From Lingula anatina (lineage: Eukaryota > Animalia > Brachiopoda), in contig CM120641.1 of the NCBI GenBank assembly GCA_051362555.1, positions 43,840,401-43,904,400 on the forward strand: a stretch of 64,000 nucleotides of DNA, read 5' to 3'. Made by a program: the position numbers and the translations under genes. Shown here piece by piece: positions 10,601 through 63,555 of this stretch. The notes under the pieces were generated by a model that had not been told where the DNA came from, ran no database searches, and saw nothing but the letters and a program-made list of their open reading frames with translations. How positions within the stretch are numbered: position 1 is the stretch's first letter; the number at the start of each line of letters is the position of its first letter.

Positions 10601-13600
10601 GGAACTATTTAATCCCATAAATCTGATTGCTGGAATCAGCAGTCATAGAAATACAAGTCTGAAGATGAATACTATAGATGATGGAAAAAATAACTTAAAC
10701 CTTTATCAGTAGCTACATTTCCACCATTAAAAAAAAAAAAAAAAAAAAATTACAAACCATACATCATTCAGACTAGCGACTACTAGTAAGTGGTCCAAGA
10801 TAACACACAGAGGATATATCTGCAGTAGAAAATAATTCCAATACATGTGACAGGAACCAAACATGAATATATCATAAGAGGCAACCCTCAGCATAAAGTA
10901 TGTCCGAGCATTTTAAAAGTTACCTTTGAGAAGAACATCAAAGGCTTCCTCAGCACTCTTCACCTCAACCTCTGTGCAGTTGCTCACATACATGCTGCGG
11001 TCACCATCTTCCCTGAGGATCTTGGAGTTGGGCGCTCTACAACAAAAACATACACGTCCATGGAGACATCTGTCACTCTTTCCTGATCATCTATTTTTCT
11101 GCATGCTGACCATGTGGCATGATATACTTTAAAACATCTAATTTTGATATGTTATGATTCATCCCTTTGTCTCGACAGAGTAAACCTGTCACAGGTTCTA
11201 GTTATTTCCATAAATCAATTTCCAATGTGAACATCACAATCCCCAATCCTCCTTTACTTATGTTCTGTCGACTACTGTTCTTTACTAAGTTGTTACAGAT
11301 GTGGTGGTTGTTAAGAGGAAGAGGGGTGAGACACTAATAAACTGTTTAAGACCTTAACTTACACAAAAAACATACATTTAGTGTTTTGATTCATATCACA
11401 AAATAGGTTTTTTAAAGTGGCTGTTTTTTTAATTGTAATTTTTTAAGTGCAAGTCTTTCTAAAACTATATAATTTTTGTTAGGAGCATTGTCTTTTTTAT
11501 TACCTGTAGCCTGTAATTGGGTCATAAGGAAGCTCCTCCAGAAGGTCATAGATGTAGTTGTTATAAATCTCAATGTAGGACACGAACACTGCATAGTTGT
11601 TATCCTCCTCAATATCATTCACCCTGGATGGGTCTGTGATCCTGGGAGCATCGCCAAACTCCACAGTCTTCTTGCTGTTCTTTGGTGTGGCGGGGGTGCG
11701 TGGGGCATCGAACCTGGGCATGACGTCCCGCTTCTGTCTCTCCACCATGGCATCAGCCTCTGTCTGGACATCATAGCCATTCATTTTGTCTGGCATGAAC
11801 ACCTAATAAGGAGGTATGAAATCTTGCACTATTCTAATTTTTAATTATCGTATGCGATGGCTGAAGAAGTAAACAGCAAAATCAAGGACATTTCTTGGCT
11901 TTAATTAAAAAACTGCTGATGCACATAACTTCACATAAGATACACACACAGCTGAAACTATTTAAATATTTCCTGACATTCATTAATGTGATTATCCACA
12001 TGGCACCACAACTAAATTGGATGTACCACCAATGGGCATTAACCCAGGGGAATACTCTATCTACTCACATATTTCTTGGCCTGTACTGAGGATATGCTGT
12101 TGAAGATCATATCCAGAGACCTGACCAGAGTACCTGGGTCTGAGGGTTTCCCTGTCATGGTGTACGTCTTGCCGGAGCCCGTCACGCCATAGGTAAACAT
12201 CAAACCTGTGGATAGCAAACGGTGTGAAAATGTATTTACAAAGTATAAGTATAATATCAGAAGCTTAACCTCTAAACCTCACTTGTGTTCGCTTATTCAA
12301 CAACAACAGCAAAATCCAACTCTAGTCAACAAGAAATGATTAAATTATTTAACCACATTTTAATTTCTTCAGATAATTCAAAACCTGGATCTTGTTTTTT
12401 AACCAACCAAAAAAATTTATGTAACAAAAACCACATATAATTCATACTAACCATTCTTCCCTCTGAGCAAGTCCTCCACAAGTGGAGAGGCCACAGTGTC
12501 AAACACGGCCTTCTGTGAAACATACTCGTCAAACACATACTTGAAGGCGTACTGGGTCTGGAAAAGAAGTTCAATGAGAGAAAATGAGATCTCCAGTCCT
12601 CCACAATTAGACAGCTCCATGTTAAAAACTGCCTTCTGTGAAACAAGGTTGTTGAACACATATCTGAAATTATTATGGGTCTGAAATAAAATGACAGTTC
12701 AATAAGAGAAAAGGAGACCTCAAGTCCACTATAACTGGAGAGATTAATGTTTATCACAAAGGACAAAATGAAAAATTTCTTGTGAATTATAAATATCACG
12801 TATATTCGACAAAGAAAATTCTATTTAGCAGCCAGGCTATTAGAGCAAGCTACAAACATAGCATAAACACACTTGCCTTAAAAAAAAAAAATAAATAAAT
12901 AACATAAAACTGCCGTGCTAAAACTCTTAAGAGTTTCTGAGCTCCTTTATAAGTTGTCCTTATAAAATGGTTGGACGATCCCTTTTGGAGCAACCCTGTG
13001 TAACTGGTTGTAATCAACTGCTTCATGACACAGTTAAAACTAAAGTAAGTTGCTACATTTATGACTCAGGGTTTGTTTTATTTTACTCCAAAAAATCATC
13101 TAATCATTTTACTAAGTTTCAAACTGATACATGTTTACTATGAATGAAGTGTCATGTTTTATGGGTCTTCTTCAACAAGTGCATTGAACTACATTATTAT
13201 GTAAAGAAATATTTCTTAACAATCTCCTTCGCATCTGTTAGATAGAAAGACAACCAAGTACTTTATTTAGGCCAGTCATATGGTTTCTCCTTGAAACAAT
13301 GTTCATGAATCAAAGGTTCCCATTAGAATGACAACATCATAGTTGCTAAACCTACTACAACATCCTCATTCAAGTTTTAAAAAATGCAGTTCACTTTCTT
13401 CATGCATACATTTTTCACTACATGCAGATTTCTTGTTCACTTATTGACTATATACAGGCAGGGTGAACCAAGTTCACCATATCAAGAACAACAACTAATA
13501 TAGTAATGACTTGACCTTTTCGATGAAGAAAAATTATCAAACTTCCAGATACATCATTTTATAATGATGAAATTATATTTCCATAAATCATTTGTTGTGC

Positions 13601-18856: not shown

Positions 18857-19114
18857 GCGTAGTCCGGTCGACCGTGAGGGCGCCACTTGAGGAAAAGGCA
18901 AATGCCTGTTGATAAAACTGATAAATGTAGTAGAGCGATGAGTTTGCTGTCCCTTGAACCCCAGGGTGGTTTCAGTAGACAAGTTAGGTAATGTTCTGTC
19001 TGGCTGCGTATTTGATATCATTTTAATGCTGACTTGTGAGGAAGACAGTTTGTTATCAAAGTGTTCCTTTACATTAGGCCTAAGTCTTTCGAGATGATGA
19101 AGCGACGGATTACA

Positions 19115-21502
19115 ATGGCAAAACAATTTGGCATTTCGACGATATTGCTCCTGTTCTTTTGTCAAGGATACGCTGTAACAGTTTTCGAGCGTTACTGGGA
19201 AAATGTCCAGACGAATATTTATGGGTCATTACCAGAGCCTGAATTGGGCAACTGCACGCAAACAGATTATCTTAAGTGCACACAAGTAAGAAGAAAAGAA
19301 TCCGTCACAACTGCAAGGATTCGCACTCATTATTCGGATTATTTCAACGTTAGCGGAACTGATTACGAACACGACGCTCAAATATCGGACTATATCCGTT
19401 ACGTTGGCCGGCCGCTTATCAATTGCATTGGGTTGATTTGCAATACACTTACCATATGTGTTTTTGCCCGAAAAGAACTCCGCCGTGTAGCGACCTGTCA
19501 GTTCTTGATCGCTGTAGCGGTGGCGGACATATTGATATTGATAAATGGTATTTTTTACTGGATTGAATACGAGCTCTTAACCCCTGTGATGACGGCCAGT
19601 GAAGTGACATGTAGAATAACTGTATTCACGGTGTATTGCGGACCTCAAATTAGCGGGATTACTTTGATTGTCATGAGCATCGAGAGACTTATGAGAATTA
19701 TTGACCCTTGTGCTCATGAGAGGTGCTTTTCTATTAAGATGACTCGTTTGTATATCGTGGTAATTGTCTTGGCCATGGTGCTCTTGAATATCTGCATATT
19801 CTTCACCAACATATACTTCAAGGAATGCAGTAAGTGGGTTTGTTGGAATATATACCATGATAGCAGGGATATACTGGAACTCCACTATGAAAGGTGCAGA
19901 AACTGTACTGACTGTGATGACTGTGGTAAGTATTTAGCTTCGAGTGCGTATAGGCAGGTTTATGTATACAGTAGATGCTATCTAGCAAAAAGGTTCACTG
20001 AGACGAATTATATACAACAATGACCAATAAATCTTGAATTATTCATGAATCTTAATTACATAAATGCAATAGCATCTTTGCTTCTTCAATTTATTCAATA
20101 ATCTAGAGACCAACTCGTTTTCTCAATATCGTTTCCACTCCACCCCGTTTTTTCAGAGCAAATTTAAAAAGGATATTAACTGTCCGTATGAGATTAATAT
20201 TTCATAATAAATACATTTTAAACAAATCAAAAATATACAATAAATTCCATTTTACCACCCAAACAGCAGTTACCGCAATTATTCTGGGATCTGTGCTTGC
20301 CATCAGACCACGTGGACCTTCATAGATAGCAATACGTCCGTAATATTATTTAATTTCTTAAGAAGTTATTGCGAAAAAAAAAAGACATTGGTAAGTACAG
20401 TGTATGGGATATCGTCGTTTACCCCAGGACAATCCGTTTTGTTTATCGCCAAAACGAACAGTTGTTATCCCTTTAAAATCATACCCTCCTCCGTCTTGAA
20501 ATTAAGAAGAACCATTATCCATTGAAATAGCGATAAAAATGGCCAAATTGTAAAAATGATATTGTAAAGTAATTATCGGGAAATATGTCCTTGTCATCTT
20601 TTTTAAATAGCTAAAAAAATACATATTCCACCCAAAAAGAGTGGTAACTTTATTCACATTATGATATATGTATAATTGTTTTATGCCACTTTAATTGCTG
20701 TTGATTCTTTCCCATATATTGAAGGGTGGCCTGATATAGTAAATATAAGTTTCTAAAGCGAAAAACACTAGGGCAAGTCAAAACTATGCAAATATTGCAC
20801 AAAGTGACTATGTCACTGACGTGACACAAATGTTCCCCTTTTTATGACCTCGATCTATTTTCAGGCGTTCCAGGGTTGTTGGAGTTGTTGGACTTCTATG
20901 ATGTGTACAAGTGGGTAGCTTTTGCGATATACTGGGCCTTACCATGCCTTTTACTGCCTGTTATCAACGGTTGGTTACTGTACCAAATATATTTGGCAAG
21001 AAAACGATCGCGAGGAACTGAAGAAGAGATCAGCGTACCAAATCACTTCTACGGATCTAGTGATGATGGTGACTTAGAGGACGACGTGGAAAGGGAAAAA
21101 GCGGAAAAAGAAGTCACAATAATGTTGGTCCTGGTCACGGCATCGTATTGTATTTTGACCACGGGATTTAATTTTATACAGGTTGGAATCATTGACGTTT
21201 ACGGCTCTGGCAGTGACCAAGATCTAATTAAGTTTTCTTACGTGTATTCCGTTTTCATTCTTCTTTTTTACTTGAATCATGCGTCTAATTTTTTTCTGTA
21301 CTGTATTAGTGTTAGGCCATACCGCGATGAATTGAAATGTATGTTGATGTGTTTCTGTGAATGCATTGCAAGACCATTGCTTAAAATTAAATGGGCTTGT
21401 AAGGGCATCTGTAGGCGGAATGATGAAGATGAGAACGATACAGACGAAACCCCTCTTCAAATGAGCGGCAGAAGCAGAATTGCTTATGGATCGTGTGTTT
21501 AG
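19115..21502 (+). CDS. Class A (rhodopsin-like) invertebrate peptide-type GPCR, FMRFamide-receptor/GPR139-142-like; 2 exons, about 482 aa
   Basis: Exon 1 is 19115 (alternative ATG 19094) to 19925, donor G|GTAAG. Exon 2 is 20865-21502, acceptor TTTTCAG, phase 1, in frame. Signal-peptide-like MAKQFGISTILLLFFCQGYA; TM1 GLICN, TM2 IAVAVAD, TM3 C...MSIERL, TM5 YWALP, TM6 VTIMLVLVT, TM7 NHASNFFLYC. Confidence 0.9.
20164..20476. mobile_element. Kolobok/T2-like MITE, diverged copy 3, in the GPCR intron
   Basis: TTAA...AGGATATTAACTGTCCGTATGAGAT...CGAACAGTTGTTATCCCT-TTAA; colinear with 9492-9836. Confidence 0.7.
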
Positions 21503-26873: not shown

Positions 26874-27344
26874 GTTTATACAAGGTGTTACAACTCCTTG
26901 GTTTATACAAGTTTAAGTCCTTTTCATGGATTATATTACATTTTTTGTGTTTTTTCATCTTACCTAAATCAAGATGCAAAGAAATAGCATGAAAAGGGAT
27001 ATGCAGAAAATTCAACATTCAATTTGACATTCATTCAAGATGTAACACAAGACTGCCCCTGTAGTTACTCGGAACATTGCAAAATATACTACCTGTCAGA
27101 AATGTAGAAAATCAAGGAGTTACAACTCCTTGGTTTATACAAGTTTAAGTCCTTTTCATGGATTATATTACATTTTTTGTGTTTTTTCATCTTACCTAAA
27201 TCAAGATGCAAAGAAATAGCATCAAAAGGGATATGCAGAAAATTCAACATTCAATTTGACATTCATTCAAGATGTAACACAAGACTGCCCCTGTAGTTAC
27301 TCGGAACATTGCAAAATATACTACCTGTCAGAAATGTAGAAAAT
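26874..27344. repeat. 232-bp tandem duplication, each unit headed by a P-like footprint palindrome
   Basis: Units 26881-27112 and 27113-27344 are nearly identical. The first footprint, CAAGGTGTTACAACTCCTTG, is flanked by a GTTTATA TSD. The second, CAAGGAGTTACAACTCCTTG, sits exactly at the junction. Confidence 0.9.
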
Positions 27345-28030
27345 CGTTAAGTTACACGTTATTTTGGTTCCTAAAATTTTTACATATTCAAAATCAAAAG
27401 TCAAACTTAAAAAAAAAAAAAACGAACAGATTAAGAAAAATCATCCTACCTGCGTTTGGCACAATTCAAAAGAACTATAATATACTATAGTATACTATCT
27501 GTGTGTTTGCTTAAAAAAAAAAAAACTGGGAAGAATGTTGTAATATGTGCCTGAAGCTTGGTGTGGCACGTCTTGGTCACGTGGGTTTAAAAAGCGGGAA
27601 ATTGCAGTGTGTAATGCGCAATGTCAGGTGAAGGATATGATGCAACGTTTCTACCACTATAATCTTACATGAAGCTGTTGGTTTTATTCATGGTTTATCA
27701 AATTACATTGAATCACAACAAATGCAAGAAAGAATTAATTCACAATTTATATGACCAAACTTGTAACGTTCTCCTCCACTTTCTCACTGCTGACTAAAAT
27801 TCTTACAGACTACTGTTTGTGGTTTTTATAAAGACAAGTCTGGAAATATCTTCTTATAAGACAGATTTAAAAGAATATTACATTTGGTAACCTTAAAGAA
27901 CCACATATTTTCCTTTCTTTTTTTGTTCTTTCTTTCTTTTTAAAAAGTATTTACAATACCAGTCAACTTCTCAACTTACAATAATGCAATCAATGATTGT
28001 ATTAAGTGTCTCCTGGTTAAAAAGTTAGTT

Positions 28031-31000
28031 CTAGAGTCTTGCCAAGGGTCCATCAGTGTCCACCTCTCGACACTTATTAAACGCATCACAGTAGCCAGCA
28101 AAATTGTTGCATGGCGCACCTGATACAAATACAGATGGAAGAAGAAGGTAAACATGGTATACTGACATTTCGCAAAAAAAGTAAGTGGTTTTTCTTTCTT
28201 TCTTTTTTTTTTTAACAAAATGTAGCCTACTGAACATTTAAAATAAATATCATACCCTTTACAAATAAATGTCATTATGATTGTTATCATCTTTATCAAT
28301 ATCATCTAACATTCATAACATTATTATGCTAGAGGTTTTCTGGTGAAAAAAAAAAAAAACATCTAGCCTTTCATAAATCTTCACCAATTAAATCCTTACA
28401 CACAACTATTAACAAATAATAATTAAATTAATCTAAAGTCTCATATCTTTAAATGCTCAGTAGACTTTAAAACACTAAAATACTAAAGAATTAAAAACAA
28501 GTTGTAAAACCATAGTTAAGTCATCATACAAATCAAAACTACATGCCCAACAATGAAATTATTCTACCCCATCTATATAACACCTATCAATAAACTACAC
28601 CTCCATCAAAATCCACTATTCCGTCCTAGACACCCATCCACTCCCACTCACAACTATACACACCCAATATACTATACTCACCAGGGGGCGCTTTGATAGC
28701 ATCTCCATTGGTAACAGTTTTTAACATGGCCTTAAAAGTATCTGGAAAACCGCCATCCTTTTGATTCAAAGAGCTCCAGCATTTTGAATCATTCCCTTCT
28801 ACAATTAGGAAAATATAGCACATATCTCAGTTGAATGTCAGAATTATTTCAGAAAATTATCCTGTTAAAAAAATTATACACGTAGAAACTGTGAGTTATA
28901 TACTTATCCAACCACATTTTAAAATACATTTTATAACAACTACGACATTAACCACTGGCTTGACTGGCAATCTCAGTAAAAATCGGACTGGGCCAGTAGA
29001 TTTTATTCAGCAGAAACATGTGCTCAATTTTTAATAATTTGTTTAATGTTCAGACTTAATGTCGATATACTTATTTTTAAACAACATTTTAAAAATCCCA
29101 TATTTTTGTTCTTAATTTCAATAGAAAGTCTGTTTAATCTTAGTGTGTTAATTCAAGTATTTTTCTTTTTTTTTTGAAAACTGGACATGGGCCAGTGAAT
29201 TTGTGTTTTGGCCAGTAAATTCTCAGACCCTAAAGGTCCTAATGGTCTGTAACTTGAAAAGTCTTTTGCACAGACTGTTATTATAACAGAAAGAAAACCA
29301 ACATACCTCTACAAGATACATAACATAAGGATGTCTTGTCAACTTTTTTATCTTTAAGATCAGCTTTAATGAAGCACTCCTCCCAACGGACATTATTACT
29401 CTCCATTCTTTCACATATAGACCCAGTGCATTCCTAAAGAGAAAATGGAAAACGTCTTTAACCACTATAAAGTTGATTACCTGGTTAATATTGAAGTGAG
29501 TTATCTTTACCTGACAAAATTCCTTACACTAACTATCAAATTAACAGTGTGAAGGCTTACTGAAAAATCAAAAAAAGGCTATATATACACTATTCAAATT
29601 CTTTGCTATGTCAAAAGGGCAATAACTGCTCATATGAATGAGATATTTAAATCAATAAGTTTTATGCTACACAGGAAGCACAAGGTACCACTTGTTTATA
29701 GAAATAGAAGCTGAATACTGTGGTCAATTCATCGGTCAAAATTATTGAAGAGATATGTAAGTGTCAAAACATTATGTACTCCCCTACACAACAACAATAT
29801 AATAATAATAATAATAGTAAATCATTGATGTTAGAATTTATTGTCATTTTGTTGTTTGTTGATCATTTGACTACCATTGTTAGGTATCAGGGGATTGAGA
29901 ATTACCAGAGCATCTACTAATTAAATATCACATTACAACAATTTCAAAAAAACTATTCTAATAGTAATCCATTGGTGTAGTCTTTGTTTGGAAGGTCACA
30001 TTGTGACCAAAATCTTTGTAATTTGTAGTTTAATTTTTTTAGAAAGTGAAAAGTTTAGTTTTATAACATGACAATCATATTGTTAATATCCTTATAGAAG
30101 AATCACTGAGATAAGATATACTGAACACAGCAGAAAAACTTACCCCTTGTTTGCATACTTTGGTATTATTTTTACAGGGTGAGTAGTCCGGCTTCAATGT
30201 TGAGTCTGGACAAGTGTAGTTTGTTCCCGTGAGATGGGAGTTAAGGCAAATATTTTACTGACATAAAAGAGTACTTCACCAATGATTTAAATTGCATGCA
30301 GTTAAAATCACCTAAAAAGTTATCATAGCATATGGTCATATATAAAAAAAGCTGGCAATGTGAAAATCTGACTTCTAAATCTCAATTTACTATAATTATT
30401 ATCATAATTATCCATTAGGCAAACTGGTCTATAATGCAAAAGTTATATGTCCTGTAAATCAAGGATATCTACAAATCTGTTGTTCATTGCAATCTGCAGC
30501 AGCTCTGCATACAAGCTTCTTTGAATCTGGAACATAGTCACAGGTAGTTGCATTACAACATGGCCCTTGCGACGGACTGAAAGGAAAAATTATGAATAAA
30601 AAATTAACCAGTTGCCATACAATTCAACTGTAATGATTTCCCTCACAATTTATCTAGCTGAAGTTGATTCCATTCATTTATGGCAATTCACAGAACAACT
30701 TTACCCAAATTTTATGTACTTGGTTTATATGTCTATTACTGTGTAAAATGCACTAAAATGGTAAATATATTTTTTAGATCAGCTTTTCAATTACTAAATA
30801 ATGAAACAAAGTCAAAATAAACAAAGCAAGATCAGAAAATGCCATATTAATGGCAGATCCAGGTGGCATGCACAGAGGGAATATATCCTTCCGTCTTCTA
30901 AAGAAAGTTAGCACCCATTCCCCTGCCCTAAAAATTACATAAAAGTTGTCCTTATGTACCATTTTGTATTTTCTAAGCGAAGCAAGGTGAAATTTTTCAT

Positions 31001-34000
31001 GCTTGTTTTCCCCTTCAGTAAACTGCTGCATCTGGTACTGTAACAATCCATATTTCCCCTTACCTACACACTGTGCCAGGCTTTCTTTTACATGCATTAC
31101 TGCTACTGCCACTTTCTACTGCTGGGTTGCAGCACTTGTCTGTACATTCCCCATTACTGTTGGCAAATCCACAGTCACATTCCTCTCCTTCTTCTACTAT
31201 GTTGTTTCCACAGAAAGCAGCATCACTGCCTGTGGCACAGAAGATAATATCATTTAGTACTTATTCAACAGAAGATATAAAATTTACACTTCATGCAACA
31301 CCTTATCTATGAGACTGTAGAGAAAAATCAAGATAGGTTTTAAAGTAATAAATATTAAATCAAATATACCAAATTTTTTATTAATATTCACTCAACAAGA
31401 TACTGACTCAACCATTTTCTCTTACAAATGTGACTAAAAGGCACTTGTAAGGACAGCCAAACATTCTAGATTTGATATGAAAATCTATGAATTCTTTTAG
31501 TAACTTCTTACAGTGGAAAATATTTTTAACCACTATAAAGTCTATTACCTGGTTAATATAGAAGTGAGTTATCCTTACCTGACAAAATTCCTTATAGTAA
31601 CTATCAAATTACCAGTGTGAAGGCTTACTGAAAGAATGAAAAAGGCTGGGGACTTTTATTTGTTTTATCTGATATTCAAATTCTTTGCTATGCCGAATGG
31701 GTAATAATTGCTCATAAGGATGAGATGTTTAAATCAAGTTTTACACTACACAAGGTTCCACATGTTAATAGAAATAGAAGCTGAATACTGTGGTCAATTT
31801 ATTGGTCAAAAGAGATACTAGTATGCAAGTGTTAAAACATTGTGTACTCCCCATACACAACAACAACAAATAATAATAATAATAAGATTTTAATAAGATT
31901 TTTTTAGGTATATGAACCACCAGTACACTATTATGAATAAAATTCACCCATCTCCATAATTTTGTTTATGGGTGGTAAAAATCAGAAATTTTGAATTGGA
32001 GAATGGGTTTGTGGGTTGCAATTTCCTTTCAGTTTTGGTCAGGGTATACTTTGGTGAAAAGGTGTTCAAATAAGGGCACATTCCCATAGATTTTAGATCA
32101 ATCTATCCCCGTGGGGAGTCTCACTAGATTACTGTCAGATAATCCGGCTTAAATGTCCGTCCCGCCTACTGCAAGCTGCAATGGGGTAATTAACTTTCGT
32201 GCCCACTCGGCTGACAGCTATTTAGCTTGAACCCGCAGGGATTTAGGTCGATCTAGTTGGATCAATCTAATCTCTGGAAATGGGGTCTAAGAAGGAAAAT
32301 CAATATTTTGCTATGTAAAGGTCTAACACACATTGAATGCCAGTAGTAAATCTTACCAATAAGACAGTTCACTTTGTTGGCTCCCCTGTTCAGAGCATCA
32401 AGAACCAGAGTGATGTTGTCTTTACTGCAAGGGGAGAACAGCTTGTTGTTTGGTTTTTCTCCAGAGGTAGCACTTGCAAACATGATATAGTTCCCATTTC
32501 TGTCACCCATTGATGTGTAGGGTGTACACTTGCTTCCCTGGTCATGCTAAAATAATTATATTTTAGAACTTCAGTATTTATCTAATTATTTATTTATTTG
32601 TTTGTTTATTAACTTATTAACTTATCTATATAGTGGTATATATATTTTTTCTTTTTTTTTTTTACCACTTATCTTGTCATATTTCTTTATTCAGTTCTTA
32701 ATTATTTTTTTCAACACAAAATGAGAGCATAAAGGATCCTATGGTCATAAGGTGATATCCCTTTTCTCTAATCTGATAAAAACATCTATTCATCTACAAG
32801 CAGTACAGTTTTATTTTGTAGATCACATTCCACATCTGAATATTTTATACTAAATCAGTGACAAATGTAGTTAAATGCAGTATTTTGAACATCTCTCTCT
32901 TTTGTTTCTTTTCTTTTCTTTCTCGTTTTCTTAAAATCACCAGCTTTTTGTATTCTACTAAACACCAAGAGAAGGCGTGCTATGTTAGACTGATCTATGT
33001 AGAATGACAGATTCATTGCGAATGTGCCTTAACACACTATGGACTCACCGGTGACCCAAAGTTATGACCGATTTCGTGGGCCAGCGTCAGTGAGGAAACC
33101 CTGGATGGAACAGTCTGCCCATAGTTAATGAAGGTCACAATGCCTGTGTTCAGACTCTTGTACACTTTGAGGGTGCTGGTGGCTTGGCCACGCCCATATT
33201 CCTTGTACTCCTTCCATTTTTCACATATGCCACCAAATGCCCCTTAAGAAGAAGTCACATTTTTATTTTGTGCGTGTGTGTATGTGTGTGTGCATGCATG
33301 CATGACTTCCATCGATGAATAATTACATAAACAATAACTAAATATTTATGTGATTTAATGTATGATTAAAAATTCATGTTTAAAAAGTTTCATCAGTTTG
33401 GTAGATAGTAAAAATCAAATACCCTTTTGAAGATGGCCAAATGTTGAAATACTTCACAAGAGTTTTCTTTTTCTAGGTTTGTGACAAAAGAACTTTTCAT
33501 CTCAAATAAATAAATAAAGAAATATGATAACATATTGACCATGAATTACAAAATCTTTCTCCTGTCCACCACAAAAGGAAACAAAGATTGCACCACTTAC
33601 TTTTTGATCCCTCCCACGCCAGTCCCAGGGTGCCTCCAGTGAAATCACGATACGTGAACATGTACGCCAGGCAGTACTTGTCGTGGTTCATTTTAGAGTT
33701 TAGGTTAAGGAAGTGGATGACAGATATATATCTAATGCAGAAGTCTTTAACAGCTGCTAGTGAGCAGTCACTACGCTTGAAAATCTGAAATGTAACATTA
33801 AATGGCAGTCTGAGATCATACTTCTGGTCCATGGCAATTAACCACAAAGTTGGGGATTTTGTAAAAAATCTATTAAACTATGTTAAAAGTTAAAATAGTA
33901 ACTGTAAATTTTATACTGCAACTGCAGCCTTCACTCACTCTGACAACATGAGAGGTACTTCACAGAAAAGCCAACAGGCCTGTTTTCTGGTGCTTCTCAT

Positions 34001-37000
34001 CATATCTGTTGAAACTGCCATAGTAACATGCGTAAGGCACAAACACATACAAAAAACATTTTACTGCTTTTGATGCCTAGAAAAAAGACCCATGTGTTGA
34101 GTTTCTCACATAAACAAACAAGCAACGAATGCAAGCTACATCATTTTTGGGTCCTTTTCTCTTGTCATATGCAGTGGTATTAGTCATTTACAACATTTGT
34201 CGACAAGGCCTATGTAATATGTGTATTTTAAAATACACCTTGCTGACTCATGGTATATCTAATACTTACCCTCACTCTTTGAACACGGAAACTATAACCA
34301 GTCAGTTTCTTGGATCCATCATATGTCTCAAATATTGTGTTCTGATATATGTCCTTGATGGCCGTGACATGGGTATGAAACATGGCTATAATGGCTTCTT
34401 CTGTACGCATGTCATCCTGTGGGTTGAATAAAAATGAAAACATAAAGAGAATATTTAAAATTTGATTAAAGCACTAGTTCACTTGACATCACGTCATAGA
34501 ACCCATTCTATTAAAATCTAAAAACATAAAAGGCAAACAAAAAAATAAAATCCTTCCTTAGAAAACTTTTATACAAAAATTCTAAAAATATATAAACAAA
34601 CAAATAGGAAATAAAATCAAGACTAAAAAAAAAATTATATAAATAATGCATAATATACAAACATTAATAAACAAGGACTGGAGTGGAAAAAATAGAGCAG
34701 GGTAAATACAGTAGAGTACAGCAGAGTAGAGCAAAGGAGAGTAGATTAGAGCAGAGAAGAGTACATACAATAGAACAGAGCAGAGTAGAACAAAATATTC
34801 AAGGTGCAGCAAGTTGGACGTCAACTATATAACATACACTATACATTTGTCTCATGTGATCCCACAGTGCAGGGTCTGACTGTAAGAGCAGACTGCAGGT
34901 GTTTTTTTGCGGAGTGAATAAAGTGACAGTCGCTCTCTTCTGCCAGTTTTCTTCCTCTCGTTTCACCCTGTTCAAAGCCTCAGAATAGATATTGTGCTCC
35001 CTCTGATGATCTTCCCTGGTAGCCGTCCTGTAACTTTTCTGGAAACATAAACATGGGTGTCAGGACAGCATACTCCAATGTTAAATATAGGTGTCAGCAC
35101 TGAATATTTTCTTGCTTTACATCTATAGGTGTCAAGACTATTTACTTCTCAGGTTAAAAATTAAATACTCATTTTGACTGTCATTTGATAGTTTTCACTA
35201 AGATATTGGATTTATTTTGGTTTAAGACATGAAGATGCTCTCTATTGTGTACTTGTTAACATGCCATTTATATGGCAAAGAAATAGTTAACTGTCTAGAT
35301 ATAATATACATCACTTGGATCCAAGAGCTCCATTTATAACAAACCCTGCAGAAGCAAGAAGTCACATTTACTTCTTATAATCAAGGACCTTTTTACAAAG
35401 AACTTGAAACTCTTAAATTCTTCTTACTTCCAAAACTGTTCTAAATTCTTTAGTTCAAAATACAATAGACAGAAATCTTTTTTTAGTATGAATATTTAAG
35501 TACACAATGAGCAGTATTCAGAGAAAAATTTATCTCGTAATGTCAACACTAATTCAACAATCAGCATGGCATAACATATCCATACGGGTTGAAAAATTAA
35601 TATCTAGGAAAATATACTCTCTTTGTCCTCCCTCCTTTTTAATTTAAAAAAAATTGCCATATAAAGGTGTAATACACATTGTATAATTAAATACAATTTT
35701 ACCTACTTTCTTTACATCCACAGCAGAATTCTGAACTCTGCTCATCCAGTCTGCAATGTCACTATTGCTATTTCCACACTGAGCAGTACCAGCTGCACTG
35801 CGGATATGCCTGAAAAAATAAAAAATAATACAATTACCAGGATAACTTTAAAACAAGGGACCCATTTCACAACAATTCTAAAAGTTTTGGGTTGACCAAA
35901 TACCACTCAGCTTGCATAGACTTCAAAATAAAATTCTCTGTGAGATATTGTTTTAGAGCATTTCATAAAAGATTGGCCCAGAATAAATCTAATGCAAAAC
36001 TCAAAATGCAAAGATTTTTTTGCATATTAACAATGATAATATTGGCCCAAAAGTAATGCGAACAGATAACTGATAATTCTACTCAAAGCCATATCATGTG
36101 GAGTTATTTTGTTGGTACAGCAATGAAAATTGTGGTAGAGGAGACCTTGTACACAATAAAACAATGTGGCACAACAGTTTGTGAAATAGGCACACTGTCT
36201 CCTTTCCAGAAACATTAGGATGTTATTTGGTATGTACCATTACTGGACCAGTGTTTGTCCTGCTAAAGATCATGTGAATACTGTGCTTGCTCAACCACAA
36301 GAAAAATTTGAAATAATTAAAAATCAAGCAGAGCACTGATATTGGGAGTTAATTACTACTTTTGTCCAGTATCAATAATTAATGGTTTTTCTCAAAAAAG
36401 TGAAAAAAGGTTTAAGATAATTTTGATCAGCTTTCAACTGCAGTTTGTGTTATTGCTTGCAAATAATATTATATATTTGCAAATAAAGAAGTAAAAATTA
36501 GAAACATAAGGAATACATCAAAACCTTAACAGGCAAAAAAGAAATGCCATATTTCTCTAAATTCATGCCTTAATCTTCAGATTTTAAAATTATCTCTCAG
36601 TGGCATTAAAATAATAAATATAGATTACATTCATATATAACAATTCTAGAAGTGCTTCTCACCTGTATGGGTCCATATCCATATGATCCTCATGGTAGAT
36701 GATGGAATGGAACTTTTTCTTCTCTGTGACTTCTTTAGGGAAGTACTTGTTGGCATGTTCTATGTGCCACCTTCCAGTCTCTGGAGACTCAATGGTTCCT
36801 GTGAATACTCCACCTAACACACTGCCATACACAGATGACCCGGGCTCACCTGGAAGGGGAGGGGCGCAAATATACAGATTAGCTACTATACTGTGGCCCC
36901 ATTCAGAAAGGGAATTACCAGTCCGAGGATCAAATATGGCAACTCGCTACAAAGCTTGCCAACTAGAACCGAATAGATATCCTGTGGGGAAGTACGGATT

Positions 37001-40000
37001 CTAGTGGGTCAGTTAACATAATTCTGTGGGATAAAATACTAAAACTCAGTATCCACAGTTCAAATACATTCTTAACATCAAGTGGCCAGTGAAAGTCAAA
37101 CATTTTACATTTGTCAGCTGCATTAACTCAATCTTGTTGTAAACAAAATCATCCTTATCAAGTACATGTATGAATTACCTTTTCCCACTGTACAGAAAAG
37201 AAAACTAACTAAACAAGATGATGGAATCTCTATAATGGCTGCCCCCCTGGACTAAATTACTGATATCAAAATGCATGAGGATCTGAGGCCAATATTACAG
37301 ATGGCAGGCATCGTTACCTCTATCTGATAAAACCAAGAGTGAGGGTCAAGGAGGGCCTATCTAACTGGCTTATCATGTGACTAAGTAAAGACCAATCTTC
37401 TACACATAGTACACAAAACAACAAGTTTCTATCTTACTTAAATATCAAACTCAATAGTCATTAGGTATTTTAATAAAAGTGAAAGTGAAAGTTGATTATA
37501 ATTTCATTTTTGATATATTCCATTTCATTCAGTGGTTGTAAAAAAATAATTTTAGGGTATGGTATGTGCATTATTTCTGTTGTTGTGTCCATTTTGTCAA
37601 AAAAAATGTGGTCGAAAAAAATTATGTTGCAGAAAAAAAAAAAAAATCATGCATCCACAAGTTTTCACGAGAAAAAAAGGAAAATAGCAACACATTAAAG
37701 CTAAGCAAATTGTGTCATAAACCAGCTTAATCAAAGGCATGTCATTTTTTAACCAATTTCTGATATGAAGAAATTGTGTACATATATGATGACAATTTTA
37801 ATGACCAAAAAATATATGACCATTATACAAGACACTGTCATATTCAGCAGTGTATATAAGGAAAGTATTTCTATATATTTCTGTGGCTGATCTTAAACTT
37901 CAGTAGCAAGTATTCTCAATGATGATATGTGTGATTTGGCTGCCACCAAAGGCAATCATATAATAGACTTGGCAACACACTACTAAGGCGCATTCACAAT
38001 AAAACTATCGTACTAGGTAGGTAGTTCAAACTTCATTGGGCCCTCGCCTTCTCTTGTATCCAATGTACTCGTATAATCACCAGCTAATCTGTATTCTATT
38101 CAAAACCAGGAGGAGGTATGTTACTCTGTTCATCTGATTACATTCAGCAAGAGTCCCCACAGAGTCAGTTCAAAACTACCTAAATCGTTAGTTTGATTGT
38201 GAACACAAACATTATAAACATAAAGCAGCATTAAACTGGAGAAAATTTAATGACGTGGTTTCTATTATTTTCGATCACCTCTTGATGTTAATTTTTAACT
38301 ACTAGTACTTAATTTTGATTTCAACTAGTAAATATTTTAAAGTTTCTACTTATTAGCCAGAGTGACCAGTCAGTGAGCTGAACAGTAAAAGGTGCATCCA
38401 GCAATACTTTGTACACTTACCCCATAACTGCCCTCTGTATAGAAAACTGGTGTCCAATGGCTTTGTGCTTCCATCTCCATATTCGATATCTGCATTTTTA
38501 CTGAAGATCTTGGAGTCTTTTTGGAGTTCCAAATTAAAATTTCTGGAAAAAAGGAATGTTTTGTATCCTTTTTAAGTATTAAAGGAAAACATCTCCGATA
38601 AGGACAATACTGGTTAACGTTTTAGTATCTTTTTGAAGTTTTTAATCAACAAATAAGAAAGAAATATGTTATTCAAAACACAAACTTACATCAGATTTAA
38701 TAATGAAAATTGACATCTGAACATGATATCCAAATATGTAATTTGTAGGTGAGAACTTACCAATATAGTTACTTCTATCTAAGATCTAATAAACGTGTTT
38801 ATTAGATCTTAGCTTCTATTAATACTGTCCAAAATATTTATGTGGAATGAACAAAGGATAATATGCCAAATATACCTAAATCTGTCAATCAAAGAAACAC
38901 CAATAACTGACAAAAGAAAAGGTAAGATATGTATATTAAGATTTATTCTGTTTAAGATGTACTTATGAACACCTTGATTCATATCAACCAATTAAGTTGA
39001 TCTACACCTCTGTAAATAAAATATTACTGCACTTCCATATCTTGAGATAATACTGGTTTATTGATTTTTCTTGTTAACAATGAGCAAACCTAACATGTAC
39101 TCAAGATCTGTGTGTGACCTGGCATTTTTCATTTTTCTCCTTCTTCAGTTTTTCTTCTCTTAAACCTTTTACTTTCTCTTTGCCTTAGCTTCCACCTCTC
39201 TGTTTTTTTTTAAAGAAGAAATGACCAGACCAACAGTTTAATTTACTGATCCCATCAATATACCTTTACACAACAATTTTCTGGTTTGAAAGCTAAGGAT
39301 AACTTTTATGATAACAGTCACTGGACTTCTCAATACAGGACTTTTAAAAGCCCATATAAACTGAAACTAATTCAATTTGCAATATACAGTACTAGTGTGC
39401 TTCTACCAGACATGCTGAAAACTTTTCAGAATGGCCAGACATTTGGACTGGCAGTAATGAAAAATTTGCCAAATAGATTGGATTTTTGTTGGACCGAAAA
39501 TCACCCTATTCGTTTGAGACAGATATACCAGTACCATCAGGTAGCTTTAATTTGTTTGTGAATGTAATAGGTTTGAAATGGAAGGGAAAATACGTTTTGG
39601 GTTTTATATTATTTTATTAGTGAAGTATGTCGAATGATGACTGTAAATTCAAAATTGCGGTTCTTAAAACTCTTGTCGGTCCTTTGCACCAACCAAGTCC
39701 AATTCTTTGCCAGTCCAGATAAATTTTCCCGGTCATGACCAATCAGACCGACAGTTTCAGCATGTCTGTATTACATAAGGGACACCTGATATTTTACCTT
39801 ACCTGCTGTGAGCTTTAAACATGAGATTAAGGGTCGACTGGTCAGACAGTGACCGTTTGGCTCGGAGATGAAGGTTGTGAAGGTCATCCGCATCGTAATT
39901 TAATTCCTCGTAATGGGAAATATAGTCATTCAGTTTGTTCTTTGTGCCTGAAATATAACACAAAACATTGTCAAAAAATTGTGGTTAAAGTGTTTGTTTT

Positions 40001-40698
40001 GTTCTACATATTAGGCTCACTTTCTGAGGACAAACCTCATTCAAATGCTAAACATGCATAAACTTGAATTAAGAATACTGTAAATTATTCTCGTATTTTA
40101 ATTATTTGGTCATTTTCATCCTTGATTTGGCATGTATGCATGTTTTCGTGCACAAATACAAAAGAGAAGAAACAATGCTGCAGTGAAAAGCTTACAGTAC
40201 TTACATAACTTTTATCCAGAATTTACAAGGTTTGTCATTGTGATTTCTGAGTCTGTAAGTATGTGTTTGCATCAGTTTACAATATTAAGACATCTTTATG
40301 GCATCTTTGTTGATTAAGCATAATTACATAAAATGCTTTTCCACAAACCCAAGGACAAGGTAATAAGTGCATTAAATATTAGGTAATGGTCCCAGGCTGT
40401 TGTATGAGGGGGAAGAATAAACATATCACTGTCAGTCTACTTCAAATAGCAACTCATCAGAGCTATAATACATATGCTGTTATTTGCTCATGTCATTTAC
40501 CATACCTGTTGAATGCAGTCACACCTGCCTCCTCAGCTAAAAGCTATACTGCAATTTTATACCATAAATATATTATAGCATTGTAAAGAATAACCCCACG
40601 TTGTCACACAGTCACGACCAACCCCTAGACTCACCTGATCTGCATCGAAGCTGCAGACAGATCACCACCGTTACCCATGCTATCCTTCTGCACTTCAT
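28031..40698 (-). CDS. ADAM10: ADAM10/Kuzbanian-like metalloprotease, copy A; 16 coding exons, about 742 aa, ends before the transmembrane segment (predicted secreted)
   Basis: Exons 40635-40698, 39803-39947, 38421-38542, 36663-36849, 35707-35809, 34838-35038, 34270-34416, 33601-33784, 33049-33242, 32357-32546, 31064-31229, 30469-30576, 30144-30228, 29307-29433, 28682-28798, 28031-28119 (sum 2229 nt, all in phase). Signal peptide, prodomain with AQCG cysteine switch, [31 protein letters not shown], Met-turn GNYIMF, disintegrin [15 protein letters not shown], Cys-rich [29 protein letters not shown] then TAG. Confidence 0.9.
29460..31860. repeat. Dispersed direct repeat of about 310 bp (29460-29790 and 31529-31860) in two ADAM10-A introns
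   Basis: Both copies start ACCACTATAAAGT...TTACCTGGTTAATA.TGAAGTGAGTTATC and stay colinear to TGTACTCCCC. Probably a transposon fragment or local duplication. Confidence 0.75.
30229..30468 (-). other. U12-type (minor spliceosome) AT-AC intron in ADAM10 copy A
   Basis: 5' site TGTAG|ATATCCTTGA, branch site GCCTTAAC about 10 nt from the 3' end, 3' site CTCAC|G. Splicing restores QQIC-R-GTNYTCP, matching the ADAM10 disintegrin pattern. Confidence 0.92.
32074..32287. mobile_element. PIF/Harbinger (Tourist-like) MITE, 214 nt, TAA TSD
   Basis: TAA-GGGCACATTCCCATAGA...TCTCTGGAAATGGGGTC-TAA. The paralogous site in copy B (about 61015-61025) is empty with a single TTA. Confidence 0.85.
36893..37010. 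mobile_element. Partial copy of the 18285-18467 Harbinger-like MITE
   Basis: TGGCCCCATTCAGAA...GATCAAATATGGC...GAATAGATATCCTGTGGGGAAGTA. Confidence 0.6.
39407..39768. mobile_element. hAT-like MITE present only in ADAM10-A intron 2
   Basis: TIRs CAGACATGCTGAAA / TTTCAGCATGTCTG. Absent from the paralogous position in copy B (about 50470). Confidence 0.65.
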
Positions 40699-40712
40699 CT
40701 CCGTTTGTCAAC

Positions 40713-41835
40713 TGTTGTGTTGTTAAGTTGTTTTTGAAAAGAGAAAAATGCAAAATTCCAGAGTACTATCGATACACGTTTAGCCTTTTATTTTCCTGCT
40801 TTGCGTTTCTGATGTCTACATATATTCTCTAACATAGTGCTTCAGCAAAACATTACATTCCTCCCCACCTTGAATAAAGAGGCATGCAACTATGTATGTT
40901 TTGTCTTGAACATAAATTTAAATCTGAAAAATGAATTCTGAAAATGATGCAAAGAGAAAAGAAAGATTGCATTTAAGAACTGAGCCTTACTCTGGCTATT
41001 GGCACAGTTACACTTACTGTGGCAATGAATCATAAAATGTTTGCTTGGCACAAGTGAATTATAACGTTTATAAAATTGAGCACAGTTTTTTTTAGGCTGT
41101 TATGAGTGTATAGCATCATATGAAAGTTGTTCATTCAGTCTTTGGCAATAAGTTAAGAGATATACTGGTAGTCAACTAAAATATAATAATACTGCAAACA
41201 CTTAAGAAAATGTCATCAGTCTTTGGCAATAAGTAAAGAGATATACTGGTAGTCAATTAAAATCTAATAATACTGCAAGCACTTGAGAGAATGTCATCAT
41301 ATCTATCATAACTTGTTTCATGACATGGATAAAAATAAAAGATGTTTCAAATTATTAAGAGATTGATCCTAGGGTAAGGGTAGACTGTCCTTCCCTAGCT
41401 GTATGCTCAATAAGAACCGCAATTAGGCACTATTCTGGCCTTTTAGTGCGTGTTCATTATAAAATCCTTGGATTTTGAAGGCAGATTACATTCACGTCTG
41501 GGCCTTTCTGGTGGCATTAATGTTGCCCTATAGTGCCATCTGATGATTGGCTGGTTTGAGTTGCTGAAGTTGATAGGTTTGGTTCTTCTTCTTCATCATC
41601 AGATGATGGGACGTCTTCTGGGTACGCAGGAGAGGGCTCGATTCTCAGTGAATTCCTGGTAACCGTCTTCCCATTTCATGCAGCAGTTAACATTGACTCC
41701 TTCTGCTCACACACAACGAGGGGTTTTGGGTCAAAAGGTGGGTCAGCCTTCTTCCATCCTTCTTTCTTCAGTAGCACGGGATCACCAACCTTGATTGGAG
41801 ATTCTTTAACATAGGGCTTTATTGTTATCTCCATA
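40713..41835 (-). mobile_element. 5'-truncated Gypsy-type LTR retrotransposon: integrase C-terminus, 3' UTR, polypurine tract and 145-bp 3' LTR
   Basis: Minus-strand translation KPYVKESPIKVGDPVLLKKEGWKKADPPFDPKPLVV...SMLTAA*NGKTVTRNS (GPF/GPY module) and terminal RPRRECNLPSKSKDFIM. Tandem repeat of about 81 nt at 41136-41298. Polypurine tract AAGGTGGGGAGGAA at 40871-40858. LTR TGTAATG...ACAACA at 40857-40713 with an internal AATAAA. Confidence 0.85.
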
Positions 41836-42214
41836 GTTTAAGGCGTTTAGAAATCAAAGATCAAACAAATTATTAATAAAAAACAAAGAAAAGCGAATTT
41901 TTTAAAAAAAATTTATTGTCTTCAAAACAAAAAAAAAATTTAAAGTGAACCTAAAAAATGTAAGAACGGTCTTAAATTGTTATTAATATATCTATCGTTC
42001 GTGCCTCAGCTAGTAGATGGCGATGTCCTGATCAGCTGGATACGTGAACACACATTCAAAGCGCGTGCAGACACAAAATGCACATATCTAATAAAAAATT
42101 AGATCAATTGCTGACATTGAACAATCATTTGTCCAAGCCTGAATTCACATTTAGAGACCATATGAACGACTAGTGTGAAAGACGCAATGACCGATCGCAC
42201 CTACTGCATCAGTA

Positions 42215-42295
42215 AAGTAATCTCGCGATTATCTCATCGAGGAAGTAGATTCGCGCATGCGCAAACTCTAGGTGTGTCGACTAAACTTCCTGCTT
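42215..42295 (+). promoter_or_regulatory. CpG-rich housekeeping-type promoter of ADAM10 copy B
   Basis: TCTCGCGA (BANP/Kaiso-like, 42221), GGAAGT and ACTTCCTG (ETS, 42241 and 42285), GCGCATGCGC (NRF1, 42253-42262), 80-150 nt upstream of the ATG. Confidence 0.6.
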
Positions 42296-42370
42296 TATTG
42301 TGTTGAGTCGTTTGTCGCCACAGGACCTTCATTTGGGCGAAAAAATAAGCTTAAACTAGCTAGTTGACAA

Positions 42371-63555
<21,185 letters not shown>

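What the first reader, a model, noticed from the sequence alone, without database searches (positions are those of the whole stretch)
40699..41835. Gypsy 3' LTR sits 14 nt upstream of the ADAM10-A start codon and replaces its ancestral promoter
Seen: homology between copies A and B ends at GTTGACAA just upstream of the ATG. In A it abuts the ...ACAACA end of a 145-bp TG...CA LTR preceded by a polypurine tract and an integrase relic, all in the same orientation as the gene. The NRF1/ETS promoter of B is not duplicated, and the first ATG of B is ACG in A. Inference: A is transcribed either from the LTR (promoter exaptation giving new tissue specificity) or by bidirectional firing of the B promoter about 1.5 kb away. 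The AATAAA inside the LTR could instead silence it.
Basis: partly seen in the sequence, partly recalled or inferred. Interest (0 to 1): 0.72.

Follow-up and report, generated by a model that had tools for sequence, protein, structure and literature searches.

The report
Retrotransposon beside a near-silent ADAM10 copy
In a Lingula brachiopod, the tail end of a Gypsy-type retrotransposon sits where the promoter of a shortened second copy of the ADAM10 protease gene should be; five RNA samples show no transcripts starting in it, so it likely switched the copy off rather than giving it a new promoter.

Summary
The anatomy is real. An integrase tail, a purine tract and a 145-bp TG...CA LTR (40857-40713, minus strand) abut ADAM10 copy A. 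The LTR ends 8 nt before A's lost first start (ACG) and 14 nt before the second ATG. B's promoter is not duplicated. A second animal carries the same junction, and another family copy supports the LTR's 3' end. The promoter claim is not supported. In five RNA-seq samples, 258 reads join B exon 1 to exon 2 and no listed joint uses A exon 1 or the relic. The LTR body has zero depth in the two samples laid finely. A-type alleles are 4 of 951 reads at the four best-covered diagnostic sites. Its 744-codon frame and all 15 introns are intact (neutral P(no stop) = 0.008), so selection kept it until recently or still does. Best reading: a recently silenced partial duplicate (0.45). LTR-driven expression in unsampled cells stays open (0.3).

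The parts
40713..40857 (-). 3' LTR, 145 nt, TG...CA, AATAAA at 40792-40787; no TATAWA and no Inr consensus match
   Evidence: Sequence. Diverged copies in DNA runs X2 and X4; one X2 contig leaves the homology at 40713. RNA depth 0 on 40730-40824 in X13 and X14.
40858..40871 (-). Polypurine tract directly before the LTR
   Evidence: Sequence; shared with another family copy seen in RNA and DNA.
40872..41454 (-). Element 3' untranslated region, with an 81-nt tandem duplication (41135-41296, 6 of 81 differences)
   Evidence: Another family copy has a single unit (loose end before 41216).
41455..41819 (-). Integrase C-terminal tail relic; one stop near 41677 and frame breaks near 41585 and 41531; everything 5' of about 41850 (integrase core, RT, gag, 5' LTR) is missing
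   Evidence: RNA depth 0 on 41395-41869 in X13 and X14.
40705..40712 (-). The 8 nt of host 5' UTR that copy A keeps
   Evidence: Alignment to B.
40635..40704 (-). ADAM10 copy A exon 1: ACG at 40704, in-frame ATG at 40698, signal-peptide hydrophobic core intact, donor intact; 3 differences from B, all non-synonymous
   Evidence: At most one read in X12 and in X14, none in X13, X15, X18.
27980..39947 (-). ADAM10 copy A exons 2-16: prodomain, metalloprotease with intact zinc motif, disintegrin, Cys-rich domain; open frame to a stop at 28033-28031; no transmembrane or tail exon found in the window
   Evidence: The same stop position ends RefSeq XP_013415888.
42241..42292 (+). Promoter of copy B: NRF1-type motif 42252-42263, ETS-type cores at 42241-42246 and 42285-42290, CpG-rich; RNA begins at about 42250-42285
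   Evidence: RNA depth starts in bin 42250-42344 and 5 molecules end at 42280 in X13. Motif names are recalled.
42371..63555 (+). ADAM10 copy B exons 1-12 (runs on beyond the window); the expressed copy
   Evidence: 258 exon 1-2 junction reads.

Best explanation
The 3' end of a Gypsy-type element lies in the former 5' UTR of a shortened inverted duplicate of ADAM10, the duplicate is silent or nearly so in five RNA samples, and the insertion is likely what cut it off from its promoter. Steps: (1) ADAM10 exons 1-16 were duplicated head to head, without the transmembrane and tail exons, or lost them later (anatomy shown, order inferred). (2) For most of its history copy A was kept as an open frame that would give a secreted ectodomain (inferred from decay statistics). 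(3) The element integrated 8 nt before the start codon, in the gene's direction (junction shown; integration inferred from the exact LTR end). (4) A deletion or the duplication breakpoint removed the element's 5' part and A's own promoter (absence shown, cause inferred). (5) The remaining LTR does not start detectable transcripts in the sampled material (shown); its AATAAA, and two more upstream, would end any read-through from B's side (inferred, untested). A is therefore most likely a young pseudogene with a trace of leaky RNA at most.
For: (X13, X14; joint table complete): the only joints are B exon 1 to exon 2 (84 and 55 reads) and one from another element copy; depth 0 on 40730-40824 and 41395-41869 on both strands; A exon 1 bin 0 and 0.68, against about 107 for B exon 1. 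(X12, X15, X18, X13): A exon 1 bin 0.04, 0, 0, 0; the reads on A's exons carry B letters. At four protein-diagnostic sites where B reads map well, 4 of 951 reads lack the B letter (0 of 392, 0 of 140, 2 of 253, 2 of 166; upper 95% bound 1.1%). Signs of relaxation: all 3 exon 1 differences change a residue, including the start codon; A departs at 5 of 199 positions conserved in at least 90% of 27 outgroups, B at 1; pairwise dN/dS 0.44. A search for short A-type proteins found none above 66% identity among 59 hits.
Against: A has no stop in 744 codons (4.6 expected if neutral since duplication, P 0.008), no frameshift (4 to 17 expected) and 15 of 15 intron ends intact, so it cannot have been dead for more than about 12-38% of its branch. 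The element looks older than that: its 81-nt tandem units differ at 6 of 81 sites, about 3.7% per unit (1.4-7.7%), if the tandem arose after insertion. The relic differs between the window and the RefSeq model by a stop and two frame breaks in 116 codons, against none in 719 codons of A (nominal p 0.003; confounded by gene conversion and differing genealogies). At other diagnostic sites A-type letters reach 5 of 73, 6 of 64, 5 of 79 and 4 of 94 reads.
Confidence: 0.45

Rival explanations
1. Promoter exaptation with narrow expression. The LTR starts A's transcript in cells that were not sampled or are rare in the samples (germ line, early embryo, a gland). Translation begins at the second ATG and gives a secreted, transmembrane-less ADAM10 with an altered catalytic domain.
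For: Frame, splice sites, zinc motif and signal core intact. The element seems older than A's possible period of decay. The junction is shared by a second animal at full depth (X4 contig 40673-40867, no difference). Trace A-type alleles in X13 and X12. At 1% of B, about one read is expected on exon 1, so the 5' blank does not exclude a trace. An AATAAA 345 nt after the stop (27688) could make exon 16 terminal. An LTR drives an oocyte-specific Dicer isoform in mouse (PMC7786948, passage).
Against: No sense read on the LTR body in X13 or X14 and no exon 1 joint. No TATAWA or Inr match in the LTR. No read of another family copy covers the LTR body either. Three diagnostic sites have no A-type read in X13 (0 of 177, 0 of 76, 0 of 26).
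Confidence: 0.3
2. A is transcribed from somewhere else and the LTR is spliced out or read through: either from the integrase relic as first exon (the RefSeq model XP_013415888 splices from about 41490 to exon 2 and skips exon 1), or by divergent firing of B's promoter.
For: The RefSeq model exists as a coding gene. X14 has about one or two minus-strand read pairs at 41965-42154. The LTR end plus the next base forms a CAG with a branch-like CTTAAC before it.
Against: No depth on 41395-41869 and no joint from the relic in X13 or X14; sense depth 0 in bin 41197-41707 in all four runs. The relic-derived leader has no hydrophobic signal (best 12-residue mean 0.15 and 0.63, against 2.37), and in the window and in X4 its frame is broken. 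Three AATAAA lie on the minus strand between B's start and A. Whether the RefSeq intron rests on reads could not be checked.
Confidence: 0.15
3. Dead on arrival. The element sat in one allele first; a segment running from inside the integrase to intron 16 was then copied in inverted orientation. A never had a promoter, and gene conversion from B keeps its frame open.
For: Needs two events instead of three and explains both truncations at once. Conversion is evident: the 200 aligned sites over exon 4 differ at 0.5%, and the 3' part of the two A haplotypes differs at 16 of 178 residues against 4 of 541 in the 5' part, several toward B-type residues.
Against: dS (0.119) equals intron divergence (10.6% raw), so exons are not homogenised more than introns, while dN is 0.052. 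Exons 6-10 hold most of the fixed A/B residue differences and three indels, all in frame, without a stop; only 34 of 138 intron indels are multiples of 3.
Confidence: 0.1

Closest known systems
LTR-derived host promoters (mouse MTC LTR of the oocyte Dicer isoform; human HERV-E LTR2B of pleiotrophin)
   Same: A sense-oriented LTR next to coding sequence of a host gene (PMC7786948 and PMC4379568, passages read).
   Different: Those have chimeric transcripts on record; none was seen here. Here the host promoter is gone from the copy and the LTR is a 3' LTR still attached to its purine tract and integrase tail.
HERV-E upstream of human salivary amylase AMY1B
   Same: An LTR element inserted upstream of a duplicated gene (PMC4379568, passages).
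   Different: That element is full length, antisense and acts as an enhancer of an expressed gene; this one is a sense fragment beside a near-silent copy.
Snake adam28 to mdc-1, the first step toward secreted P-III metalloproteinases
   Same: An adjacent ADAM duplicate that keeps metalloprotease, disintegrin and Cys-rich domains, gains an early stop and lacks the transmembrane exons (PMC7245079, passages).
   Different: Different ADAM subfamily (ADAM10), inverted not tandem, and a very young copy (about 11% intron divergence); no expression or secretion shown; nothing points to a venom role.
K02A2.6-like Ty3/Gypsy integrases (Priapulus XP_014662077, XP_014676488)
   Same: 62% identity over the integrase C-terminal tail, and the same terminal motif just before the untranslated region.
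   Different: Only the tail remains, broken; the clade cannot be assigned without RT.
Lingula anatina RefSeq XP_013415888 (copy A) and XP_013415899-901 (copy B)
   Same: Same two copies on one contig, same early end of A, same relic upstream of A.
   Different: The RefSeq model uses the relic as first exon and skips exon 1; the RNA laid here does not support that.

Membership tests
LTR retrotransposon 3' end | LTR bounded by TG...CA with short inverted termini | tested here: met
   40857-40713; 7 of 9 terminal bases inverted-complementary.
LTR retrotransposon 3' end | Polypurine tract directly 5' of the 3' LTR | tested here: met
   40871-40858, 13 of 14 purines.
LTR retrotransposon 3' end | Other genomic copies whose homology stops at the LTR boundary | tested here: met
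   3' end: one X2 contig matches 40713-40723, then continues differently, with a TGG two bases on (primer-site-like, recalled). 5' end: no copy with a different flank among the rows shown; 31 loose ends were not shown.
LTR retrotransposon 3' end | Paired 5' LTR, primer site and target-site duplication at this locus | not testable with these tools
   The 5' part of the element is absent from the window.
Ty3/Gypsy | Integrase is the last pol domain, directly before the 3' UTR, tract and LTR (excludes Copia order) | tested here: met
   Integrase tail 41819-41455, then UTR, tract, LTR. The relatives carry rve, and one also Integrase_H2C2.
Ty3/Gypsy | RT/RNase H phylogeny within Ty3/Gypsy (versus Bel/Pao); clade such as Mag | not testable with these tools
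   No RT remains. That K02A2.6-like proteins are Gypsy is recalled, not shown by a call.
Exapted LTR promoter | Transcripts start in the LTR and run into the host gene | tested here: not met
   Depth 0 on 40730-40824 in X13 and X14; sense depth 0.05, 0, 0, 0 in bin 40686-41196. Five samples, tissues unknown.
Exapted LTR promoter | Host gene remains functional after the insertion | tested here: inconclusive
   Frame intact beyond neutral expectation; rough dating suggests constraint outlasted the insertion, with caveats; RNA about 1% of B or less.
Exapted LTR promoter | Promoter activity in a reporter, open chromatin, capped 5' ends | not testable with these tools
   Needs experiment.
ADAM10 (membrane sheddase) | Prodomain, zinc motif, disintegrin and ADAM10 Cys-rich domain | tested here: met
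   Pfam Reprolysin and ADAM10_Cys-rich on the RefSeq A protein; best solved match human ADAM10, E 6e-104.
ADAM10 (membrane sheddase) | Transmembrane helix and cytoplasmic tail | tested here: not met
   Copy A stops at codon 745; no tblastn hit for B residues 751-865 better than E 0.07 in the window; best 19-residue hydropathy 1.22 against 2.92 for B.
Classical pseudogene | Frameshifts, early stops or broken splice sites within the domains | tested here: not met
   None before codon 745. If A is a pseudogene it is so by loss of expression only.

The most novel reading that the evidence does not exclude
Lingula carries a young, secreted ADAM10: a head-to-head duplicate that shed its membrane anchor, remodelled five conserved catalytic-domain residues, lost its housekeeping promoter and is now driven by a 145-bp Gypsy LTR in a narrow cell type. 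That would be a promoter swap and a membrane-to-soluble switch caught in one step, like the adam28-to-mdc-1 step in snakes, in the protease that cuts Notch.
Probability: 0.25. Interest if true: 0.7.

Novelty: new member of a known kind. Interest (0 to 1): 0.35.

Why it matters
On the best reading this is an ordinary end of a gene duplicate: a mobile element in the 5' UTR and loss of expression. It also shows that a RefSeq model (XP_013415888) fuses an integrase relic to ADAM10 without support in the RNA laid here. If the rival holds, it would be a clean invertebrate case of an LTR as the only promoter of a gene, and a natural soluble ADAM10 that could compete with or bypass the membrane form. 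One tissue panel of 5'-end data would decide.

Tried and rejected
No whole genome is held for this window, so family copies were seen only through contigs of two DNA runs. The run search listed no indexed RNA holder; that blank is not used as evidence. Pfam gave no family for the relic itself. A 17-nt likeness between the relic's 5' edge and B's 5' UTR looked like a trace of A's old leader; rejected, because those bases read as frame-broken integrase in the translations (judged by eye) and the flanks do not align. The RNA on the purine tract and LTR start (40847-40892; 66 and 76 reads) is not from this locus: it is antisense, all reads carry a different letter at 40856, it leaves the window's sequence at 40847, and the same joined form is in DNA contigs of X2 and X4. 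A CTCF-like site at 42010-42022 (one mismatch) is within chance, 2 found against 0.54 expected. Site 29346 looked diagnostic, but 46 of 108 reads lack the B letter, so it is likely polymorphic in B; dropped. Low protein difference between the two A haplotypes (20 of 719) was considered as proof of current selection and rejected: nearby non-coding contigs differ from the window by only about 0.5%, which predicts a similar value under neutrality. Literature: 'Lingula' with 'ADAM10' gave 1 unrelated paper (listing only); the one supplementary file held for the 2015 genome paper has no ADAM10, ADA10 or kuzbanian; searches gave nothing on this locus (listings only). The scan's earlier findings held nothing.

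Full report
Setting. The window holds two copies of ADAM10 head to head: A on the minus strand (40704 to 27980) and B on the plus strand (42371 to beyond the window). B's first exon is identical to the start of Lingula anatina XP_013415901 and its exons 2-12 are 97% identical in protein, so the animal is L. anatina or a very close relative. RefSeq holds both copies on one contig.

The observation. The homology of A and B ends at GTTGACAA, with one base of overlap with the LTR end. The LTR spans 40857-40713 and follows a 14-nt purine tract. The relic is an integrase C-terminal tail, 62% identical over 79 residues to a Priapulus K02A2.6-like protein, whose cluster carries rve and Integrase_H2C2 domains. 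The 14 nt are counted to the second ATG; the ancestral start, now ACG, is 8 nt from the LTR. In DNA run X4 one contig covers 40673-40867 without a difference at depth 91, and another covers 41699-42402 at depth 115, so the junction and the join to B's promoter exist in a second animal. In X2 a contig of another copy matches the last 11 bases of the LTR and then departs, which supports the 3' boundary; this is one contig and six bases beyond the end. The 5' boundary rests on the tract and the TG. I laid 2 of the 11 DNA runs listed; 131 contig rows were not shown.

Copy A has 16 exons and an open frame of 744 codons that stops at the end of the Cys-rich domain; a second stop follows two codons later. 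No transmembrane or tail exon is found in the window, and the RefSeq A protein ends at the same place. If made, the protein would be secreted: the hydrophobic core of the signal peptide survives behind the second ATG, though one change puts an arginine three places before the likely cleavage site (inference from the recalled -3/-1 rule). The zinc motif is intact.

Is A transcribed, and from where? I laid 5 of the 9 listed RNA runs (three studies; 6-25% of each run read; tissues not given). On 39780-42600 (X13, X14) the joint table is complete and lists only B exon 1 to exon 2 and one joint from another element copy. The LTR body (40730-40824) and the relic (41395-41869) have no depth on either strand. 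A's exon 1 bin has 0 and 0.68, the latter about one read that may belong to B; B's exon 1 has about 107. B starts at about 42250-42285, beside the NRF1-type motif. Opposite-strand RNA upstream of B is 0 in X13 and one or two pairs in X14. On 27400-42700 (X12, X13, X15, X18; 12 joints, 170 letter rows and 145 loose ends not shown) the reads on A's exons carry B's letters, and the bin with A's exon 1 has 0.04, 0, 0, 0. Exon 1-2 junction reads of B total 258. Of the 40 letter rows shown I used the 32 exonic ones; 12 are diagnostic by protein. At the four where B reads map well, 4 of 951 reads lack the B letter. At the others the counts are 5 of 79 (two linked sites), 4 of 94 (two linked sites), 1 of 34, 6 of 64, 5 of 73 and 46 of 108; B reads drop out there at 95% likeness, and the last site is likely polymorphic in B. 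A is thus at about 1% of B or less; the trace cannot be told from rare B alleles with A-like patches. The RefSeq first exon inside the relic has no support in these runs and encodes no signal peptide.

How long has A been off? Introns of A and B differ at 10.6% of 6838 aligned sites, with 138 indels, 34 of them multiples of 3. Over 601 codons dS is 0.119 and dN 0.052. Had A been neutral since the split, 4.6 stops (P of none 0.008), 4 to 17 frameshifts and 3.4 hits in splice dinucleotides would be expected; none is seen before codon 745 (assumes equal branch lengths and no conversion). So A was kept by selection for most of its life, and any neutral period is at most 0.7-2.2% divergence of a 5.7% branch. 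Two clues suggest that the element is older than that: the tandem units in its UTR (6 of 81 differences; another copy has one unit) and the three breaks that separate two haplotypes of the relic. Both are soft. The tandem may predate insertion, and conversion blurs the haplotype comparison. They are the reason the exaptation reading keeps 0.3.

Mechanism. Shown: the anatomy, its presence in a second animal and in the RefSeq model, B's start site, and the absence of LTR- or relic-derived sense RNA in five samples. Inferred: integration into the 5' UTR, loss of the element's 5' part with A's promoter, earlier selection on A, and silencing by the insertion. Untested: any terminator role of the AATAAA, which is common by chance in this composition (28% of shuffles).

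Comparison with what is known. It resembles LTR promoters of mammalian genes in layout (PMC7786948, PMC4379568; passages read) but fails the defining test, a chimeric transcript. The truncated copy resembles the adam28-to-mdc-1 step in snakes (PMC7245079; passages), where a duplicate gained an early stop and lacks the transmembrane exons. The element is Gypsy-type by domain order and by its nearest relative; a clade such as Mag (PMC6238403; passages) cannot be assigned. The 2015 genome paper gives 1.6% heterozygosity and 0.2% Gypsy (PMC4595640; passages and one supplementary file) and that file does not name ADAM10. Searches found nothing on this locus; subscription papers and bioRxiv supplements were not covered.

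Verdict. Observation confirmed; interpretation partly supported, as position and not as function. A new member of a known kind. Interest 0.35. The boldest reading left open, an LTR-driven secreted ADAM10 in a narrow cell type, has probability 0.25 and would deserve 0.7.

Noticed in passing
window 60770-60954 (about 60816): Copy B exon 10 is 2 nt short in the window, a frameshift inside the catalytic domain. RNA reads of other animals and all RefSeq B proteins are in frame, so this is an assembly error or a null allele.
   Followed up: partly
window 30229-30468 (-) and from 63556 (+): Intron 12 of both copies has AT-AC ends with an ATATCCTT donor, the minor-spliceosome type (consensus recalled); intact in A.
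   Followed up: partly
window 33049-33784 (-): Five fixed changes in A at positions conserved across 27 outgroups, all within 45 residues of the catalytic domain (D345S, S347I, N348H, V382E, S389F in XP_013415901 numbering). The outgroups are mostly arthropods, and human ADAM10 differs at some of these sites.
   Followed up: partly
window 39407-39768: A 362-nt insertion in A intron 2 with perfect 14-nt terminal inverted repeats (MITE-like), absent from B; copies elsewhere are transcribed.
   Followed up: partly
window 40847-41315: Another copy of the same element family is transcribed antisense in three samples of one study; it has a single 81-nt unit and an altered LTR start.
   Followed up: partly
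window 36660-36880 and 56185-56420: Exon 4 and its intron flanks are almost identical between A and B, a likely gene-conversion tract.
   Followed up: partly
P0125 (XP_013402891): A third full-length Lingula ADAM10 on a 17-kb contig, about 5% from the other B proteins and A-like in places: a divergent allele or another paralog.
   Followed up: no
window 61293-61922 (+): A 209-codon open frame in B intron 10 matching PF09004, which I recall as typical of the end of LINE reverse transcriptases.
   Followed up: no
window 19040-21502 (+) and about 8600-12700 (-): Neighbours: a two-part rhodopsin-family receptor and a kinesin (Pfam) that looks KIF23-like (recalled).
   Followed up: no
window 32071-32307, 49982-50217, 50769-50971: A short dispersed repeat with hundreds of RNA reads that run on into unrelated sequence.
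   Followed up: no
window 26881-27345: A 232-nt tandem duplication at 99% identity downstream of A's last exon.
   Followed up: no
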